Below are positions 9,547 through 12,264 of a stretch of 64,000 bases of DNA, piece after piece. The position numbers were made by a program, and so were the translations under genes. The DNA is from a virus (taxonomy: Duplodnaviria; Heunggongvirae; Uroviricota; Caudoviricetes): positions 36,147 through 100,146 of the IMG/VR virus record IMGVR_UViG_3300042870_001427; one strand, given 5' to 3'. The notes beneath the pieces are model-generated. The model ran no database searches and was not told where the DNA came from. It saw nothing but the letters and a program-made list of their open reading frames with translations. How positions within the stretch are numbered: position 1 is the stretch's first letter; each line of letters starts with the position of its first letter.

Positions 9547-9616
9547 AGAGTAGGTTCAGCAACACTAAAGACTACCAAAATGTTAATTTGTCTTAGTCGA
9601 CAAAACTACTCTGTTG
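9547..9616 (+). ncRNA. CAGCAA-stem RNA (Y-like family I) copy A, with an Asn-like ASL
   Basis: AGAGTAG/CTACTCT stem, GTTCAGCAA, inner CAAA-ATGTTAA-TTTG, 3' GTTG. Confidence 0.7.
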
Positions 9617-9620
9617 TATT

Positions 9621-9697
9621 GCCCTGGTGACGGAATAGGTATACGTACTGGTCTTAGAAACCAGGTTCTGAGAGTTCGAGTCTCTCCTAGGGCACCA
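9621..9697 (+). tRNA. tRNA-Leu(UAG), short variable arm
   Basis: CTGGT-CTTAGAA-ACCAG; 77 nt. Confidence 0.9.
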
Positions 9698-9747
9698 AAA
9701 CTCGCCTTGACTTATGGCGTATAATAGGAAAAGTAGTAAGTCAATCT

Positions 9748-9822
9748 GGGCTGTTAGTGATAATGGTAGCACGGGGGCTTTGCACGTCTCAGGTAAGAGT
9801 TCGATTCTCTTACGGTCCACCA
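9748..9822 (+). tRNA. tRNA-Ala(UGC)
   Basis: TTTGCAC loop; G3:U70. Confidence 0.92.
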
Positions 9823-9828
9823 GAATTT

Positions 9829-9903
9829 GGGTCCTTAGTAAAATGAATATTACACAACGCTACGAACGTTGAGGTGGGAGTTTGATTCTCTCAGGACCCT
9901 CCA
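9829..9903 (+). tRNA. tRNA-Arg(ACG)
   Basis: CAACG-CTACGAA-CGTTG. Confidence 0.9.
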
Positions 9904-9910
9904 ATTTTAT

Positions 9911-9984
9911 GCAGGTAAGCCCGAGGTGGGACGCCAGCCTTCCAAGCTGTGCTGAGTGGAGTTCGATTCTCCCTACCTGCTCCA
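9911..9984 (+). tRNA. tRNA-Gly(UCC)
   Basis: CCAGC-CTTCCAA-GCTGT; U73; CCA. Confidence 0.88.
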
Positions 9985-9990
9985 TGTTTT

Positions 9991-10054
9991 AGGATAGTTA
10001 CAGCAAACTTAAAGCTAAACTTATGGTTGTCTAGCGACAAAAGCTATCCTGTTG
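9991..10054 (+). ncRNA. CAGCAA-stem RNA copy B
   Basis: AGGATAG/CTATCCT stem, TTACAGCAA, inner TTGTC-TAGC-GACAA hairpin, 3' GTTG. Confidence 0.7.
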
Positions 10055-10060
10055 TTTTTT

Positions 10061-10136
10061 CTCCGTAAAGTGTTACCAGGTAGCATCCGTGATTTGGGGT
10101 CATGTGGTCTAGGTTCGAATCCTAGTACGGAGACCA
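10061..10136 (+). tRNA. tRNA-Pro(UGG)
   Basis: CGTGA-TTTGGGG-TCATG; C1:G72; CCA. Confidence 0.92.
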
Positions 10137-10140
10137 AGTT

Positions 10141-10263
10141 TTGTCATAGTGTAATGAGAATGCATGGGATCGCCACATAAGTCTATGCCGAAAGGCAACA
10201 CTAGTATTCTAGTGCAATAGCGGTGGAACAAGGTTCAGGTGTGGTAAAAACCCACAACGACAA
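10141..10263 (+). ncRNA. unclassified structured RNA
   Basis: TTGTC/GACAA closure; hairpins TGCC-GAAA-GGCA, CACTAG-TATT-CTAGTG, TGTGG-N7-CCACA. Confidence 0.45.
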
Positions 10264-10270
10264 TCAAGTT

Positions 10271-10465
10271 TTGTAAGTGTCAGCAAGAAAAAGACACTAA
10301 ATTGAGTAGATGGCCATCCAAAGATTTAGTAGAGCACAGGCGGCGTGATTCCGTGCAAAACTAAGAATCTGTGGTTGAGTATCCCAAGTGACGTACCGAG
10401 TCCCGCTCGAGCTTGTTACACGGGTGAATGGTTGCTATAACGATGGGGCAACTACTTACAAATTC
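10271..10465 (+). ncRNA. CAGCAA-stem RNA copy C (long cargo)
   Basis: TTGTAAGT/ACTTACAA stem then GTCAGCAA; multi-hairpin ~165 nt insert. Confidence 0.6.
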
Positions 10466-10470
10466 ATTGT

Positions 10471-10544
10471 TGGGGTATTGTGTAGTGGTAGCACACCGGT
10501 CTTTGAAGCCGTTAGTAGTAGTTCGATTCTACTTACCCCTGCCA
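10471..10544 (+). tRNA. tRNA-Gln(UUG)
   Basis: CTTTGAA loop; G73; CCA. Confidence 0.9.
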
Positions 10545-10567
10545 GTTTTTTAAAAGGAGAGCCTGTT

Positions 10568-10699
10568 ATGGCTAGTGTCAAGAAGGGGACGTTAACTCGT
10601 CCACCACAATGGTGGAAACACCTAAGAGAGTATAAGAAGTTTTTCTGGAAATCAGAAAGACAGGCTTATAAGAAAGAAATTAGCGGGGGTATAACTTAA
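10568..10699 (+). CDS. small basic hypothetical protein (43 aa), stop codon inside tRNA-Lys
   Basis: Strong RBS AAGGAG; MASVKKGTLTRPPQWWKHLREYKKFFWKSERQAYKKEISGGIT. Confidence 0.65.
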   Translation: MASVKKGTLTRPPQWWKHLREYKKFFWKSERQAYKKEISGGIT

Positions 10700-10759
10700 C
10701 GGCTAAAGTAGTAGGCTTTTAACCTATTAATCAGAGTTCGATTCTCTGTACCCCTACCA
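10685..10759 (+). tRNA. tRNA-Lys(UUU)
   Basis: GTAGG-CTTTTAA-CCTAT; CCA. Confidence 0.92.
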
Positions 10760-10849
10760 TATAAAAACACATTCAACTAATGACACGGGTGGTAGCTGTG
10801 TATCTTAGTGGGCTAACGAACTACTACGCCTGAGTGTGTTTTTATATGG
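10757..10849 (+). ncRNA. post-CCA long-stem element, family II copy 2
   Basis: 19-bp stem CCATATAAAAACACATTCA/TGAGTGTGTTTTTATATGG. Confidence 0.6.
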
Positions 10850-10852
10850 TTT

Positions 10853-10933
10853 ACGCATTATTAGTAACGCATGAGCAGGTTACTAACTTCCGCTGGTTAC
10901 GTCTAGACCGTAAGTGAGTGAAGGATAATGCGT
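10853..10933 (+). ncRNA. unclassified multi-hairpin RNA
   Basis: ACGCATTAT/ATAATGCGT closure; TTAGTAAC/GTTACTAA and TTACG/CGTAA hairpins. Confidence 0.45.
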
Positions 10934-10948
10934 TCCTATATGGTTTAT

Positions 10949-11023
10949 GTGGTTGTTAGTTTAGTGGTAAAACCGCGGGTTGTGATTCCGCTATCACGGG
11001 TTCGATTCCCGTACATCCACCCA
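10949..11023 (+). tRNA. tRNA-His(GUG)
   Basis: TTGTGAT loop; encoded G-1:C73. Confidence 0.9.
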
Positions 11024-11028
11024 AATTA

Positions 11029-11103
11029 GGATGATTAGCTCAGTGGTAGAGCACCGCCTTGACATGGCGTAGGTCAGTAGTTCGAATCCACTATCATCCA
11101 CCA
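11029..11103 (+). tRNA. tRNA-Val(GAC)
   Basis: TTGACAT loop; CCA. Confidence 0.92.
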
Positions 11104-11107
11104 ATAT

Positions 11108-11183
11108 GCCAGGATAGCTCAGTCGGTAGAGCAGTAGACTGAAAATCTATGTGTGGGCGGTTCGATCCCGTCTCCTGGTACCA
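11108..11183 (+). tRNA. tRNA-Phe(GAA)
   Basis: GTAGA-CTGAAAA-TCTAT. Confidence 0.93.
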
Positions 11184-11189
11184 AGTTTT

Positions 11190-11285
11190 AGGATAGTTAC
11201 AGCAAACAATACTAGTCAATGGTTGACACTTTGCCTTCTAAGCAAACTTTGCCGGTTCGAATCCGGTAGTTAATCTATCCTGTTG
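11190..11285 (+). ncRNA. CAGCAA-stem RNA copy D carrying an acceptor-less tRNA-Arg(UCU) body
   Basis: AGGATAG/CTATCCT; D-like TAGTCAATGGTTGACA, ASL TTTGC-CTTCTAA-GCAAA, T arm GCCGG-TTCGAAT-CCGGT; no CCA. Confidence 0.75.
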
Positions 11286-11290
11286 TATAT

Positions 11291-11367
11291 ACCCAAGTGA
11301 CGGAATTGGTATACGTACTTGTCTCAAAAGCAAGGTTATGTGGGCTCGAATCCCACCTTGGGTACCA
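11291..11367 (+). tRNA. tRNA-Leu(CAA), short variable arm
   Basis: CTTGT-CTCAAAA-GCAAG; 77 nt. Confidence 0.9.
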
Positions 11368-11510
11368 TAGATAAACATACTTCAAAACCCCGGAACCGAC
11401 TGTAAAGTAGATGTACACGAAACACAGAAGGCAACGTAGTAGATACGGTAAGATCCGCAAGGGTGGGGTAGTCGCTTGTGAAAGCCAAGGCGAAGTATGT
11501 TTTTCTATGG
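11365..11510 (+). ncRNA. post-CCA long-stem element, family II copy 3
   Basis: CCATAGATAAACATACTTC/GAAGTATGTTTTTCTATGG (one mismatch). Confidence 0.6.
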
Positions 11511-11528
11511 TTAGTATTATCATATTAT

Positions 11529-11602
11529 ATCTCGCTGGTGTAATGGCAGCATAGCGGTCTCCAAAACCGTTGGTTGGGGTTCGAGTCCCTAGCGGGGTGC
11601 CA
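11529..11602 (+). tRNA. tRNA-Trp(CCA)
   Basis: GCGGT-CTCCAAA-ACCGT; G73. Confidence 0.92.
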
Positions 11603-11607
11603 AATAA

Positions 11608-11697
11608 GGAAGTGTGGCAGAGTCCGGTTTATTGCTACAGTCTTGAAAACTGTCGGTCCGAAAGGGTCCGTGAGTTCGAATCTCACCGCTTCCACCA
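11608..11697 (+). tRNA. tRNA-Ser(UGA)
   Basis: ACAGT-CTTGAAA-ACTGT; long variable arm. Confidence 0.93.
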
Positions 11698-11703
11698 TAT
11701 CAG

Positions 11704-11732
11704 TTGCAATTATTTCAGTAATATGTTATAAT
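11704..11732 (+). promoter_or_regulatory. sigma70 promoter for the Y-like RNA cluster and DUF2828 gene
   Basis: TTGCAA-N17-TATAAT with TG extension. Confidence 0.75.
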
Positions 11733-11751
11733 TGGAACATGTTAAGAATTT

Positions 11752-11900
11752 AGAGTAGTTACAGCAGCAAAAAAAACATGATTAGTCGCTAGCTGATACT
11801 TGCTGGAGCTTTATTGCTTTGAAGGTAGGTATCGTAAGGCAAGGCGACGAGGTGAGTTATATTTTTCACTGTAATAAAAAAATAAAAAGCTACTCTGCGG
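11752..11900 (+). ncRNA. CAGCAA-stem RNA copy E
   Basis: AGAGTAG/CTACTCT stem, TTACAGCAGCAA. Confidence 0.65.
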
Positions 11901-11905
11901 ATATT

Positions 11906-11972
11906 AGGTTAGGTTCAGCAAATAAAATGCATCAAACTTGTAATTTGAAAAAGCAAAAAAACTAACCTGTTG
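11906..11972 (+). ncRNA. CAGCAA-stem RNA copy F with a Thr(UGU) ASL
   Basis: AGGTTAG/CTAACCT; GTTCAGCAA; TCAAA-CTTGTAA-TTTGA. Confidence 0.75.
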
Positions 11973-11977
11973 ATTTT

Positions 11978-12088
11978 AGGATACTTACAGCAAATTACAA
12001 CTCACGTTGTGTAGGTGGTTCGATCCCATCATTTCGCGTTAGCGAGATTAGCTCATCTGGTAGAGCAAACGAAAAGAGTATCCTGTTG
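11978..12088 (+). ncRNA. CAGCAA-stem RNA copy G with a YrlA-topology tRNA mimic
   Basis: AGGATACT/AGTATCCT; T arm, then loop-closed acceptor, then D arm. Confidence 0.8.
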
Positions 12089-12093
12089 TTTTT

Positions 12094-12160
12094 AGATTGG
12101 GTTCTGCAATAAAAAAATTAATCACCAGAGGCCTCGGCCTCACCAAAAACCCCGAATCTG
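12094..12160 (+). ncRNA. CAGCAA-stem RNA copy H (variant TCTGCAA)
   Basis: AGATT-GGG/CCC-G-AATCT stem; inner GAGGC-CTCG-GCCTC. Confidence 0.55.
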
Positions 12161-12205
12161 GGTGGATTGCCTGATAGCACCAATGATGACCAATCTGTTG
12201 TTTTT

Positions 12206-12264
12206 AGGTTGATTTCAGCAATCAAAAAACTTTACTGGAAATAAAGCAAAAGTTCAACCTGTTG
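12206..12264 (+). ncRNA. CAGCAA-stem RNA copy I with a Ser(GGA) ASL
   Basis: AGGTTGA/TCAACCT; TTTCAGCAA; CTTTA-CTGGAAA-TAAAG. Confidence 0.75.

What the first reader, a model, noticed from the sequence alone, without database searches (positions are those of the whole stretch)
9576..12246. Isolated anticodon stem-loops displayed as cargo: possible decoys for anticodon nucleases
Several scaffold RNAs carry only a stem plus a 7-nt anticodon-type loop: TCAAA-CTTGTAA-TTTGA (Thr UGU, 11932-48), CTTTA-CTGGAAA-TAAAG (Ser GGA, 12230-46), TTTGC-CTTCTAA-GCAAA (Arg UCU, 11230-46) and the weaker CAAA-ATGTTAA-TTTG (Asn GUU, 9576-90). No full tRNA-Ser(GGA) occurs in the window. The Thr copy has C32 while the phage's real tRNA-Thr(UGU) has U32. 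Established: PrrC, RloC, VapC, colicin-type and other defence RNases recognise ASLs. Inference: these RNAs are non-aminoacylatable decoys or baits against tRNA-cleaving defences.
Basis: partly seen in the sequence, partly recalled or inferred. Interest (0 to 1): 0.8.

Follow-up and report, generated by a model that had tools for sequence, protein, structure and literature searches.

The report
Phage small RNAs displaying tRNA anticodon arms
A lake phage encodes ~60-base RNAs inside its tRNA gene array that join a constant "handle", which travels with a Ro60-like ring protein gene, to a faithful copy of a tRNA anticodon arm; they are probably baits for host factors that read or cut anticodons, a counter-defence I found in no paper searched.

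Summary
All four hairpins are at the stated coordinates. The genome has no tRNA-Ser(GGA), and the real tRNA-Thr(UGU) has U32 where the cargo copy has C32.

They belong to nine scaffold RNAs upstream of a DUF2828/vWA gene whose predicted fold best matches Ro60. Across 80 related contigs the handle is strand-specific (215 versus 26). In 23 aligned mini-RNAs:
- every anticodon-stem pair covaries;
- C32, U33 and A37 are invariant;
- A31-U39 holds in 21 of 23.

After de-replication, strict anticodon-type loops number 21 against 0.43 in shuffles. Cargo loops match the phage's own tRNA loops letter for letter.

Corrections:
- The Arg(UCU) hairpin is part of a near-complete tRNA body, not an isolated arm.
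- The "GGA" family varies in loop length and register.
- The Asn hairpin has a competing fold.

The decoy idea is untested but gains circumstantial support:
- Displayed anticodons are skewed to Lys-UUU, Arg-UCU, Thr-UGU and Asn-GUU. UUU, UGU and GUU are the published PARIS AriB targets.
- The anticodon changes at one fixed slot between close relatives.
- A Felixounavirus Ro60-like protein is reported to counter a defence system.

This scan has already met the same RNA family in about 18 other genomes. I found no published description.

The parts
11904..11973 (+). Scaffold unit 5. Handle arms at 11906-11912 / 11962-11968, motif GTTCAGCAA, tail GTTGA. Cargo is an isolated anticodon arm, TCAAA-CTTGTAA-TTTGA (11932-11948, Thr-UGU type), flanked by a 3-bp helix TGC/GCA.
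   Evidence: At least 9 orthologues keep the loop CTTGTAA with covarying stems. RNA-library contigs cover 11904-12219.
12204..12265 (+). Scaffold unit 8, the last slot before the DUF2828 RBS. Arms at 12206-12212 / 12254-12260. Cargo is CTTTA-CTGGAAA-TAAAG (12230-12246, Ser-GGA-like).
   Evidence: An identical cargo is in L059:3296. Relatives vary in loop length and register. Weak Rfam Dicty_Class_I_RNA match, 21.9 bits. The slot carries other anticodons in relatives.
9545..9617 (+). Scaffold unit 1. Arms at 9547-9553 / 9606-9612. Cargo is an outer helix plus the inner hairpin CAAA-ATGTTAA-TTTG (9576-9590, Asn-GUU type). An alternative hairpin is TTTGTC/GACAAA (9587-9604).
   Evidence: The homologue L052:44 has CAAT-CTGTTAA-ATTG. 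Four further minis carry TTTCA-CTGTTAA-TGAAA.
11188..11286 (+). Scaffold unit 3. Arms at 11190-11196 / 11275-11281. Cargo is a tRNA-like body in normal order (D-like arm, anticodon arm TTTGC-CTTCTAA-GCAAA at 11230-11246, T arm) with a 4-bp remnant of an acceptor stem and no CCA. It is not an isolated ASL.
   Evidence: Rfam tRNA 28 bits at 11211-11271. Alignment with L059, L032 and L079 homologues and the real tRNA-Arg(UCU). ARAGORN calls the L059 and L057 homologues tRNAs.
11976..12089 (+). Scaffold unit 6. Cargo is a permuted tRNA-like body: hairpin with a 4-nt loop in the anticodon-arm position, T arm, closed acceptor helix, D arm (YrlA topology).
   Evidence: Rfam YrlA 31.2 bits, E 4.6e-4, below the gathering score of 69. 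Fold z-score -3.65. In relatives the first hairpin is a 7-nt anticodon-type loop.
9989..10055 (+). Scaffold unit 2. Short cargo without an anticodon-type loop (TTGTC-TAGC-GACAA hairpin).
10268..10461 (+). Ninth scaffold-like unit with a variant handle (TGTAAGT-GT-CAGCAA ... ACTTACA) and a cargo of about 165 nt.
   Evidence: Read. RNA-library contigs cover 10265-10544 at the highest summed depth of the region. Not analysed further.
11750..11899 (+). Scaffold unit 4. Arms AGAGTAG / CTACTCT, motif TTACAGCAG, tail GCGGA. Large structured cargo. Absent in a strain variant.
   Evidence: z-score -3.5. An RNA-library contig joins 11741 to 11904.
12092..12201 (+). Scaffold unit 7. Arms AGATTGG / CCAATCT, motif GTTCTGCAA. 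Cargo of about 80 nt with no tRNA-like module recognised.
12283..13689 (+). Gene for a Ro60-like protein (DUF2828 helical ring part plus a vWA/MIDAS domain, DxSGS motif conserved). It is the presumed protein partner of the handle.
   Evidence: Pfam DUF7788 7.5e-48 and DUF2828 1.3e-26. PHROG 850 'RNA-binding protein'. AF2 model pLDDT 77. The top 13 Foldseek PDB hits are all Ro60, best 9l5y at E 3e-8 and TM 0.58.
13857..14012 (+). [quoted passage not shown] Their anticodon arms are CTTGA-CTGTTAA-TCAAG and CCTGT-TTTGTAA-TCAGG.

Best explanation
The hairpins are the working ends of a family of small RNAs (about 55-66 nt for the minis) transcribed with the phage tRNA array.

Each RNA has two parts:
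- A constant handle: an 8-bp helix closing the 5' and 3' ends, the single-stranded motif U-N-CAGCAA after the 5' strand, and a CUGU(U) end.
- A variable head.

In the minis the head is a copy of a tRNA anticodon arm: a 5-bp stem ending in A31-U39, with loop C32-U33-NNN-A37-A38.

Inference 1: the handle docks on the Ro60-like DUF2828/vWA protein encoded just downstream, as Y RNAs dock on Ro60. The particle would then hold out an anticodon arm that cannot be charged or decode.

Inference 2: the arm is a bait for host factors that recognise anticodon loops, most plausibly the anticodon nucleases of anti-phage systems. Binding or cutting the bait would spare, or buy time for, the real tRNAs. Changing the anticodon would retarget the bait.

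Shown here: the RNA architecture, its conservation, its linkage to the gene, the Ro60-like fold, and the anticodon skew and turnover.

Inferred: RNA-protein binding, expression as discrete RNAs, and the bait function.
For: Structure:
- The ASL helix has 5 of 5 pairs with both-side changes and the handle helix 5 of 8. 98.3% of cells are paired against 72% in shuffles and 45% or less when slid. C32, U33 and A37 are invariant.
- Strict anticodon-type loops number 21 against 0.43 in shuffles after de-replication.
- Loops equal those of the phage's genuine tRNAs for Asn, Lys, Phe, Tyr, Ser-UGA, Arg-UCU and Met.

Linkage to the protein:
- Handles number 215 on the gene's strand against 26 on the other, crowded just upstream of the start codon.
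- In contigs found by RNA pattern alone, 13 of 25 with genuine minis hold a DUF2828 homologue against 0 of 55 controls, p = 1.7e-8.
- The same pairing occurs in Synechococcus phage BUCT-ZZ01, Aeromonas phage LAh_9 and E. coli Felixounavirus.
- The fold best matches Ro60. Phage Ro60 binds Y-like RNAs encoded upstream of its gene (PMC12135203).

Conflict role:
- In an unselected IMG/VR sample of 29 minis the anticodons are UUU 11, UCU 5, UGU 5. In relatives of this phage UGU and GUU dominate.
- PARIS AriB cuts tRNA-Lys(UUU), Thr(UGU) and Asn(GUU) and reads U36-A-A-U39 (PMC12409363). The NNU minis keep that motif.
- At the slot before the gene, relatives with 72-89% identical proteins carry GGA, GUA, UCU, GCU or GAA on nearly the same handle.
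- L020 and L089 are 99.9% identical over 9 kb (6 mismatches), and one mismatch is anticodon position 34 of this mini.
- Bas63 gp130 is reported as Ro60-like and as a counter to the Ppl defence (preprint 10.1101/2024.10.10.617714).

Weak hint of expression: RNA-library contigs from three freshwater metatranscriptomes span units 5-8 and the gene.
Against: - No experiment shows that these RNAs exist as processed species, bind DUF2828, or affect any nuclease.
- The ASL hairpins are AU-rich and thermodynamically weak (about -0.4 to -3 kcal/mol). Single-sequence folds give no significant z-score, and for unit 5 the MFE picks another hairpin.
- AriB needs D-loop contacts as well as the anticodon stem, so a bare arm may be a poor ligand. 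PrrC-type enzymes favour modified wobble bases (my knowledge).
- A decoy must compete with very abundant host tRNA.
- The anticodon skew could partly reflect A/T-rich composition, or descent from the tRNAs that phages commonly carry (Arg-UCU, Thr-UGU, Lys-UUU).
- UGU and GUU minis are stably conserved across many relatives rather than diversifying.
- Many units of the same family carry heads that are not tRNA-like at all, so the protein's job is not confined to anticodons.
- Ppl is not known to target tRNA.
- The metatranscriptome data are contigs only, and DNA carry-over is not excluded.
Confidence: 0.42

Rival explanations
1. Adaptor or tether. As with bacterial Y RNAs that tether Ro60 to PNPase, the anticodon arm recruits a housekeeping anticodon-binding protein to the Ro-like ring. 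Candidates are a tRNA-modifying enzyme (t6A or i6A machinery, Tgt, TruA), an aminoacyl-tRNA synthetase or the ribosome. The purpose would be to regulate or exploit that protein, not to counter a defence.
For: - YrlA tRNA-like domains are substrates of tRNA-modifying enzymes, and Y RNAs act as tethers (PMC4201824; PMC12135203).
- All displayed anticodons end in U36 or A36 followed by A37-A38. Those are the contexts of t6A37 and i6A37 modification (my knowledge).
- UGU and GUU minis are conserved over long distances.
Against: - It does not explain why the anticodon changes at a fixed slot between near-identical phages.
- It does not explain why Lys-UUU so dominates the census.
- It does not explain the reported anti-defence phenotype of a Ro60-like phage protein.
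Confidence: 0.2
2. Sentinel. The displayed arm is meant to be cut. Cleavage by a host anticodon nuclease changes the particle (opens the ring, releases a fragment with a cyclic phosphate end) and thereby signals tRNA attack to the phage or triggers RNA turnover or repair. Competition with tRNA plays no part.
For: - In Salmonella the rsr-yrlBA-rtcBA operon responds to damaged tRNA fragments (PMC7790460, abstract).
- The minis keep nuclease-sensitive features (U36-A-A-U39; the LAh_9 Lys mini has UAAUCA, as at the AriB site) rather than the resistant substitutions seen in T5 tRNAs.
- This model avoids the stoichiometry problem of a decoy.
Against: - No RtcB or Rnl2-type ligase was found in this 96%-complete genome, so no obvious downstream repair arm exists here.
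- No signalling output is known for Ro60-type proteins.
- The idea is entirely inferential.
Confidence: 0.15
3. Relic heads. The RNAs are generic partner or gate RNAs of the Ro-like protein that arose by capturing pieces of neighbouring tRNA genes. The anticodon-arm shape is inherited baggage, and the anticodon identity has no function.
For: - Heads of the same family range from whole tRNA bodies through permuted tRNAs to unrelated hairpins. That looks like a decay series.
- The units sit among tRNA genes.
Against: - C32, U33, A37, A38 and A31-U39 stay fixed while stems and anticodons change across more than 20 lineages. That is purifying selection on the loop signature.
- In the IMG/VR sample every genuine handle with the loop pattern also had the stem (29 of 29, against 1 of 54 without paired arms).
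Confidence: 0.1

Closest known systems
Ro60 (Rsr) with Y RNAs, especially bacterial and phage YrlA (Rfam RF02553; Chen et al. 2014, PMC4201824; Thermus phage phiLo Ro60-Yrl, PMC12135203)
   Same: - Small RNAs are encoded next to, and on the strand of, a ring-plus-vWA protein.
- The 5' and 3' ends form the protein-binding stem with an adjacent conserved unpaired motif.
- The rest of the RNA mimics tRNA.
- Several RNAs occur per locus.
   Different: - The protein is DUF2828, with no sequence-level match to solved Ro60; only the fold matches.
- The motif is U-N-CAGCAA, not GNCGAA.
- The minis mimic only the anticodon arm, which is the one part YrlA lacks.
- Arrays reach nine units interleaved with tRNA genes.
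- No mini matches the YrlA model.
Class I RNAs of dictyostelid social amoebae (Rfam RF01414; Kjellin et al. 2021, PMC7919456)
   Same: - Length of 42-65 nt.
- A short covarying stem joins the ends.
- A conserved motif ending in C-A-G-C-A-A lies next to the 5' stem strand.
- A CUGU end and a variable middle.
- Seven minis give full-length matches of 22-35 bits that coincide exactly with unit boundaries.
   Different: - All matches fall below the gathering score of 41.5.
- Class I RNAs are eukaryotic, have their own promoter (DUSE), bind an RRM protein (Rnp1A/CIBP), and are reported as restricted to Dictyostelia.
- No anticodon-like head is described for them.
Phage tRNAs that defeat tRNA-cleaving defences (T5 tRNA-Lys/Thr/Asn against PARIS, PMC12409363 and PMC11464382; tRNA-Tyr against Septu/Retron-Eco7, reviewed in PMC13728456)
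   Same: - Phage-encoded and located in tRNA clusters.
- Concern the same tRNA identities (Lys-UUU, Thr-UGU, Asn-GUU, Tyr-GUA).
   Different: - Those are working tRNAs that replace the cut ones and carry resistance substitutions in the anticodon stem.
- The minis cannot be charged, and they keep the U36-A-A-U39 motif.
thrS operator of E. coli, an mRNA mimic of the tRNA-Thr anticodon arm bound by ThrRS (my knowledge; not checked in a paper here)
   Same: An isolated anticodon-arm look-alike outside a tRNA serves as a ligand for a protein that reads anticodons.
   Different: It is a cis-regulatory mRNA element, not a trans-acting RNP, and it has a single identity.
ToxI antitoxin RNA repeats of type III toxin-antitoxin systems (reviewed in PMC13728456)
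   Same: Tandem array of short structured RNAs that neutralise an endoribonuclease. Phages can carry mimics.
   Different: ToxI is a pseudoknot substrate and inhibitor of ToxN. It has no tRNA mimicry and no Ro-like protein.

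Membership tests
Y RNA / YrlA (Rfam RF02553) | Encoded close to, and on the same strand as, a Ro60-family gene | tested here: met
   The units end 18 nt before the start codon of a protein whose predicted fold best matches Ro60. Strand bias is 215 against 26. 13 of 25 against 0 of 55. The protein is DUF2828, not Pfam TROVE.
Y RNA / YrlA (Rfam RF02553) | Terminal stem formed by the 5' and 3' ends, carrying the Ro-binding motif GNCGAA(N)G | tested here: not met
   The terminal stem is present and covaries, but the conserved motif is U-N-CAGCAA. 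No CGAA motif occurs.
Y RNA / YrlA (Rfam RF02553) | tRNA-like domain with T arm, D arm and closed acceptor stem | tested here: not met
   The minis carry only an anticodon arm. The feature is met by unit 6 (11976-12089), not by the units of this finding.
Y RNA / YrlA (Rfam RF02553) | Scores above the Rfam gathering threshold (69 bits) | tested here: not met
   No match for the minis. Unit 6 reaches 31.2 bits, and type-C relatives reach 36-38 bits.
Y RNA / YrlA (Rfam RF02553) | Physically bound by the Ro60-type protein | not testable with these tools
   Needs RIP/CLIP or EMSA.
Dictyostelid Class I RNA (Rfam RF01414) | 42-65 nt, with a short covarying stem joining the ends and a CUGU 3' end | tested here: met
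   The minis are 55-66 nt. The handle helix has 5 of 8 covarying pairs. The ending C-(C/T)-T-G-T is nearly invariant. The definition is taken from PMC7919456.
Dictyostelid Class I RNA (Rfam RF01414) | Conserved 11-nt motif beside the 5' stem strand (T, C, C, A, A nearly invariant at positions 3, 6, 9, 10, 11) | tested here: inconclusive
   The phage motif T-N-C-A-G-C-A-A has C, C, A, A in the matching spacing. The register of the T is off by one or ambiguous.
Dictyostelid Class I RNA (Rfam RF01414) | Scores above the gathering threshold (41.5 bits); DUSE promoter; dictyostelid genome | tested here: not met
   Scores are 21.9-34.9 bits. These are phage genomes inside polycistronic tRNA arrays.
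tRNA | Cloverleaf with acceptor stem and a 3' end that can be charged | tested here: not met
   ARAGORN and Rfam call none of units 1, 5 or 8. They have no acceptor helix or CCA. Unit 3 scores 28 bits against a threshold of 29 and lacks CCA.
tRNA | Anticodon arm: 5-bp stem, 7-nt loop, U33, purine 37 | tested here: met
   Met in 23 of 23 aligned minis. The loops are identical to those of genuine tRNAs of the same phage.
Nuclease-resistant phage tRNAs (T5 type) | Functional tRNA carrying substitutions at the nuclease site (U39A, A41C in T5 tRNA-Lys) | tested here: not met
   The minis are not tRNAs, and they keep U36-A37-A38-U39.

The most novel reading that the evidence does not exclude
A modular, retargetable counter-defence particle. 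A Ro60-like ring protein carries exchangeable RNA cartridges whose heads are tRNA anticodon arms, and single-base changes of the anticodon redirect the bait to a different host anticodon nuclease. The same handle in the unexplained Class I RNAs of social amoebae would then point to an ancient RNA-protein partnership spanning phages and eukaryotes.
Probability: 0.25. Interest if true: 0.9.

Novelty: new variant of a known kind. Interest (0 to 1): 0.78.

Why it matters
tRNA-cutting defences (PrrC, RloC, PARIS, Septu/retron PtuAB and others) are now seen as a major arm of bacterial immunity. A November 2026 review lists two phage answers: resistant tRNAs and tRNA over-production (PMC13728456).

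An RNP that displays bare anticodon arms would be a third kind of answer. It would also be the first job proposed for the widespread DUF2828 "RNA-binding protein" of large phages (711 phage records).

It would explain gaps and "tRNA-OTHER" calls in phage tRNA clusters. It gives Y-RNA biology a system in which the RNA head has an obvious, testable ligand class.

Cultured members exist (Aeromonas phage LAh_9, E. coli and Salmonella Felixounaviruses, KVP40-like phages), so the idea can be tested directly.

Tried and rejected
- Single-sequence folding. The minis have z-scores of -0.5 to -1.1 and the MFE of unit 5 picks a UGCA/UGUA hairpin. That pairing exists only in UGU members, so I rejected it in favour of the covarying ASL.
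- Megablast of the region against cultured phages found only tRNA-Ser pieces.
- phmmer of the protein against PDB sequences gave nothing. The fold search was needed.
- A literature search for 'DUF2828' gave only plant and tardigrade mentions. 'Ro60-like' plus 'phage' gave nothing relevant.
- Pairing between CAGCA and the GUUG tail is rejected. The tail varies without covariation, and a 3-nt linker cannot span the handle helix.
- Single-linkage clustering at 60% merged everything. I replaced it with greedy clustering.
- RNA-repair genes: no Rnl2 or RtcB in the genome. The Rnl1 search had no positive control and says nothing.
- Metatranscriptome contigs cannot show RNA ends, strand or level. Parts without cover are not evidence.
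- The protein-atlas search returned only viral DUF2828 clusters, so it did not show whether amoebae have the protein.
- I first doubted the Asn hairpin of unit 1 because of a competing hairpin shared with unit 2. The L052 homologue preserves both folds by compensatory change, so this stays unresolved.
- My handle detector missed variants with CCGCAA or with GG/GC tails (unit 4, Felixounavirus, last-slot units of L010-L014). All counts are therefore lower bounds.

Full report
**What is there.** The window is part of a 164-kb uncultured freshwater phage genome. Positions 9016-17734 hold 28 tRNA genes, and a permuted tmRNA follows.

Interleaved with the tRNAs, all on the + strand, are repeated units. 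Each has this layout: 5' TTAG, a 7-nt arm, 3 nt, CAGCAA, a variable cargo, the complementary arm, then GTTG(T/A). Eight start at 9545, 9989, 11188, 11750, 11904, 11976, 12092 and 12204. A ninth with a variant handle lies at about 10268-10461. None occurs elsewhere in the genome.

The last unit ends 18 nt before the start codon of an ORF (12283-13689) with Pfam DUF2828 plus DUF7788/vWA.

**The observation.** The genome has no tRNA-Ser(GGA). The genuine tRNA-Thr(UGU) has loop UUUGUAA against CUUGUAA in the cargo.

Two of the four (11932-48 and 12230-46) are indeed the only structured element of their unit.

The Arg(UCU) hairpin (11230-46) is not isolated. It sits between a D-like arm and a T arm in a tRNA-like body that Rfam scores at 28 bits. 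Homologues in L059 and L057 are called tRNA-Arg and tRNA-Cys by ARAGORN, although they lack CCA and those phages have a second, genuine gene.

The Asn hairpin (9576-90) has 4 bp, is nested in an outer helix, and overlaps an alternative hairpin.

**Is it more than chance?** Single-sequence thermodynamics does not help. The stems are AU-rich and the z-scores are insignificant. Comparative evidence is decisive.

Using the DUF2828 protein I fetched 80 related IMG/VR loci at 62-89% identity. A simple handle detector finds 215 units on the gene's strand and 26 on the other, crowded just upstream of the gene. That gives 162 distinct units, 59 of them with cargo of 50 nt or less.

Results on cargo de-replicated into 105 clusters:

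| Feature (stem of 5 bp or more) | Observed | Dinucleotide shuffles |
|---|---|---|
| 7-nt loops | 66 | 18.5 +/- 4.7 |
| T-loop-like loops | 20 | 0.13 |
| CU-NNN-A(A/C) loops | 21 | 0.43 +/- 0.66 (0 of 200 reach it) |

In an alignment of 23 minis the ASL helix has compensatory changes at all five pairs and the handle helix at five of eight. 98.3% of cells are paired, against 72% in shuffles and 45% or less for slid partners. C32, U33 and A37 are invariant, A38 is at least 90%, and the 31-39 pair is A-U in 21 of 23.

The loop, with its closing pair, is letter for letter that of the phage's own tRNA for Asn, Phe and Tyr. The 7-nt loop alone is identical for Lys, Ser(UGA), Arg(UCU) and Met.

**Family anatomy.** Anticodon-type loops occur in three architectures:
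- A: bare arm (cargo 27-43 nt).
- B: tRNA body in normal order, with the handle in place of the acceptor stem (window unit 3).
- C: circularly permuted tRNA, in the order anticodon arm, T arm, closed acceptor, D arm. Window unit 6 has this YrlA-like order but a 4-nt loop in the first hairpin.

The Thr/Lys/Arg/Ser(GCU) minis also share a 3-bp flanking helix that covaries (UGC/GCA against UAC/GUA).

The unit at 12204-12265 belongs to a sub-family whose loops vary: CTGGAAA, TTGGAAT, ATTGGA, ATTTGGA, ATTGATA, CTTGAAA. Its Ser(GGA) reading is therefore weaker. Other units carry non-tRNA heads, for example a recurrent 8-nt loop NNGCWTAT.

**The protein partner.** An AlphaFold2 model (pLDDT 77) has Ro60 as its 13 best Foldseek PDB matches over its full length. 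The best is Ro60 of Thermus phage phiLo, E 3e-8, TM 0.58. Sequence search alone found nothing. The vWA MIDAS motif DxSGS is invariant.

Canonical Ro60 binds Y RNAs encoded beside it. Bacterial and phage YrlA RNAs mimic tRNA (PMC4201824), and phiLo Ro60 binds two upstream Y-like RNAs (PMC12135203).

The linkage here is independent of how I collected loci. I scanned IMG/VR with an RNA-only pattern (CAGCAA, a gap, A-CT-NNN-AA-T, a gap, CCTGTT) and obtained 83 instances. Of these, 29 have perfectly paired handle arms, and all 29 also have the ASL stem. Of the 54 without paired arms only 1 does. 13 of 25 contigs with genuine minis hold a DUF2828 homologue in the fetched stretch, against 0 of 55 controls (p = 1.7e-8).

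The same handle accompanies DUF2828 in several cultured phages:
- Synechococcus phage BUCT-ZZ01, including a Lys-type arm.
- Aeromonas phage LAh_9, with seven minis, one of them UUUGA-CUUUUAA-UCAAA.
- Cronobacter phage S13 and KVP40.
- E. coli Felixounavirus, in a variant form inside the tRNA cluster.

**What the heads display.** Among relatives of this phage the recurrent anticodons are UGU and GUU, then UCU, UUU, GUA, GCA, GGA/UGA, GAA, GCU and CAU. In the unselected IMG/VR sample of 29 they are UUU 11, UCU 5, UGU 5 and singletons. All end in U36 or A36.

PARIS AriB cleaves exactly tRNA-Lys(UUU), Thr(UGU) and, more weakly, Asn(GUU). It reads U36-A-A-U39 next to its cut at 40/41 (PMC12409363). 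The NNU minis keep that motif, and the LAh_9 Lys mini even has UAAUCA. Lys-UUU is also the classical PrrC/RloC target (my knowledge).

This overlap is suggestive, not proof. AriB also needs the D loop, the composition is A/T-rich, and phages commonly carry these tRNAs.

**Turnover.** Both patterns exist.
- L059 (68% protein identity) has the same repertoire as the window: type-B UCU, minis GUU, GGA and UGU, and a YrlA-like unit. Some heads are therefore old and stable.
- At the slot directly before the gene, on a nearly constant handle (AGGTTAA/TTAACCT), relatives carry CUGUAAA (L010, 89%), CUUCUAA (L011, L013, L018, L020), CUGCUAA (L089), CUGAAAA (L063), a type-C body (L012, L014) or CUGGAAA (window).
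- L020 and L089 are 99.9% identical over 9 kb with six mismatches. One of them is position 34 of this mini's anticodon, UCU to GCU. The chance is roughly 0.002-0.006, but it is a single post-hoc event.
- Metatranscriptome and metagenome contigs show strain variants that lack unit 4 or differ upstream of 11904. Whole units therefore come and go at unit boundaries.

**Expression.** Contigs from three freshwater RNA libraries span 11904-12219/12237 and the DUF2828 ORF. Contigs cannot show ends or strand, and DNA carry-over is not excluded. I count this only as a weak hint.

**Mechanism.** The best-supported reading is a Y-RNA-like particle. The handle docks on the Ro60-like protein, and the head is a non-chargeable anticodon arm offered to something that reads anticodons.

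I favour a conflict role (bait for anticodon nucleases, as competitor or as sentinel) for four reasons:
- the anticodon skew;
- the slot turnover;
- the retention of nuclease-sensitive motifs;
- the PhageMaP report that the Ro60-like gp130 of Felixounavirus Bas63, next to its tRNA genes, counters the Ppl defence.

My odds:
- About 0.9 that these are real, selected anticodon-arm mimics on partner RNAs of the DUF2828 protein.
- About 0.4 that they are baits for anticodon-directed defence factors.
- About 0.25 that they act as simple competitive decoys.

Rivals are a tether to housekeeping tRNA enzymes, a cleavage-sensing sentinel, or functionless relics of captured tRNA genes. The last is disfavoured by the invariant loop signature. 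This genome has no RtcB or Rnl2 ligase.

**Comparison with what is known.** The system works like Ro60/Y RNA. It fails membership of YrlA on the binding motif (CAGCAA, not GNCGAA), on the tRNA-like domain and on the Rfam score.

By sequence and structure model, the nearest catalogued RNA family for the minis is, unexpectedly, the Class I RNAs of dictyostelids. Seven minis give full-length matches of 22-35 bits that coincide with unit boundaries, below the threshold of 41.5. The published definition fits the phage handle: a short covarying terminal stem, an 11-nt motif ending in C..CAA, a CUGU end and about 60 nt (PMC7919456). I did not establish homology.

A November 2026 review lists only resistant tRNAs and tRNA over-expression as phage answers to tRNA-cutting defences. 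My searches found no description of anticodon-arm RNPs.

**Prior notes of this scan.** The same RNA family, with the same reading, has already been reported by this scan on about 18 other genomes and on this genome's scaffold family. My analysis was done independently on this window and its relatives and agrees with those notes.

Noticed in passing
window 10268-10461: A ninth scaffold-like unit with a variant handle (TGTAAGT-GT-CAGCAA ... ACTTACA) and a cargo of about 165 nt. RNA-library contigs covering 10265-10544 have the highest summed depth of the region. In relatives this element follows tRNA-Phe directly.
   Followed up: partly
window 11742-11903 and 11904: Strain variants in public runs lack unit 4 (a contig joins 11741 to 11904) or carry unrelated sequence upstream of 11904. 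Whole scaffold units seem to be gained and lost at unit boundaries.
   Followed up: partly
window 12207-12261; L089:1915-1971; L059:3297-3353; L024:1929-1984; L092:3532-3585 and 3606-3668; L045:2129-2183: The minis give repeated full-length, sub-threshold matches (22-35 bits) to Rfam Dicty_Class_I_RNA. The phage handle shares that family's stem, its ...CAGCAA motif, its CUGU end and its size. Whether dictyostelids have a DUF2828 protein was not established.
   Followed up: partly
L001:5570-5830 (Synechococcus phage BUCT-ZZ01): Two tRNA-shaped genes downstream of the DUF2828 gene carry an insert of about 40 nt in the anticodon arm. The insert contains GAATTCTGCAATC, which looks like the handle motif placed inside a tRNA body.
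   Followed up: no
L090:5745-6520 (Escherichia phage allfine, Felixounavirus): Four handle variants (arm AGACCNN, 3 nt, CAGCAA ... NNGGTCT, then GG) sit in unannotated gaps of the tRNA cluster, right after the DUF2828 gene. Bas63 gp130 is likely a homologue, but this was not checked directly. One variant is a permuted tRNA-like unit. The mini loops there (UGCGGAU, CCGGUAA) lack U33.
   Followed up: partly
window 17107-17643; L091:5482-6012 (KVP40): A PF04308 'RNaseH-like' gene lies next to the DUF2828 gene in KVP40 and 3.4 kb downstream of it in the window. It may be a further component of the module.
   Followed up: no
L027-L058 around 4931-4985; L092:3531-3584: A conserved non-anticodon mini family (arm AGAATGT in the lake phages) has an 8-nt loop of the form NNGCWTAT. 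In many loci it occupies the slot directly before the DUF2828 gene.
   Followed up: no
window 10568-10699: A 43-codon ORF with a strong RBS sits between tRNA-Gln and tRNA-Lys. Contigs of relatives join 10544 to 10685 and so lack it.
   Followed up: no
L093:5896-6138 (Cronobacter phage S13): A 121-nt 'tRNA-Ser' and a 113-nt 'tRNA-OTHER' are annotated just downstream of the DUF2828 gene and are followed by a scaffold unit at 6154-6288. These over-long tRNA calls may themselves be scaffold RNAs with tRNA-like cargo.
   Followed up: no
window 14181-14714 and 16049-16732: Two oxygenase-type genes (cupin / Asp-Arg hydroxylase-like; 2OG-Fe(II) oxygenase) are embedded in the tRNA array. Their role is unknown.
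   Followed up: no
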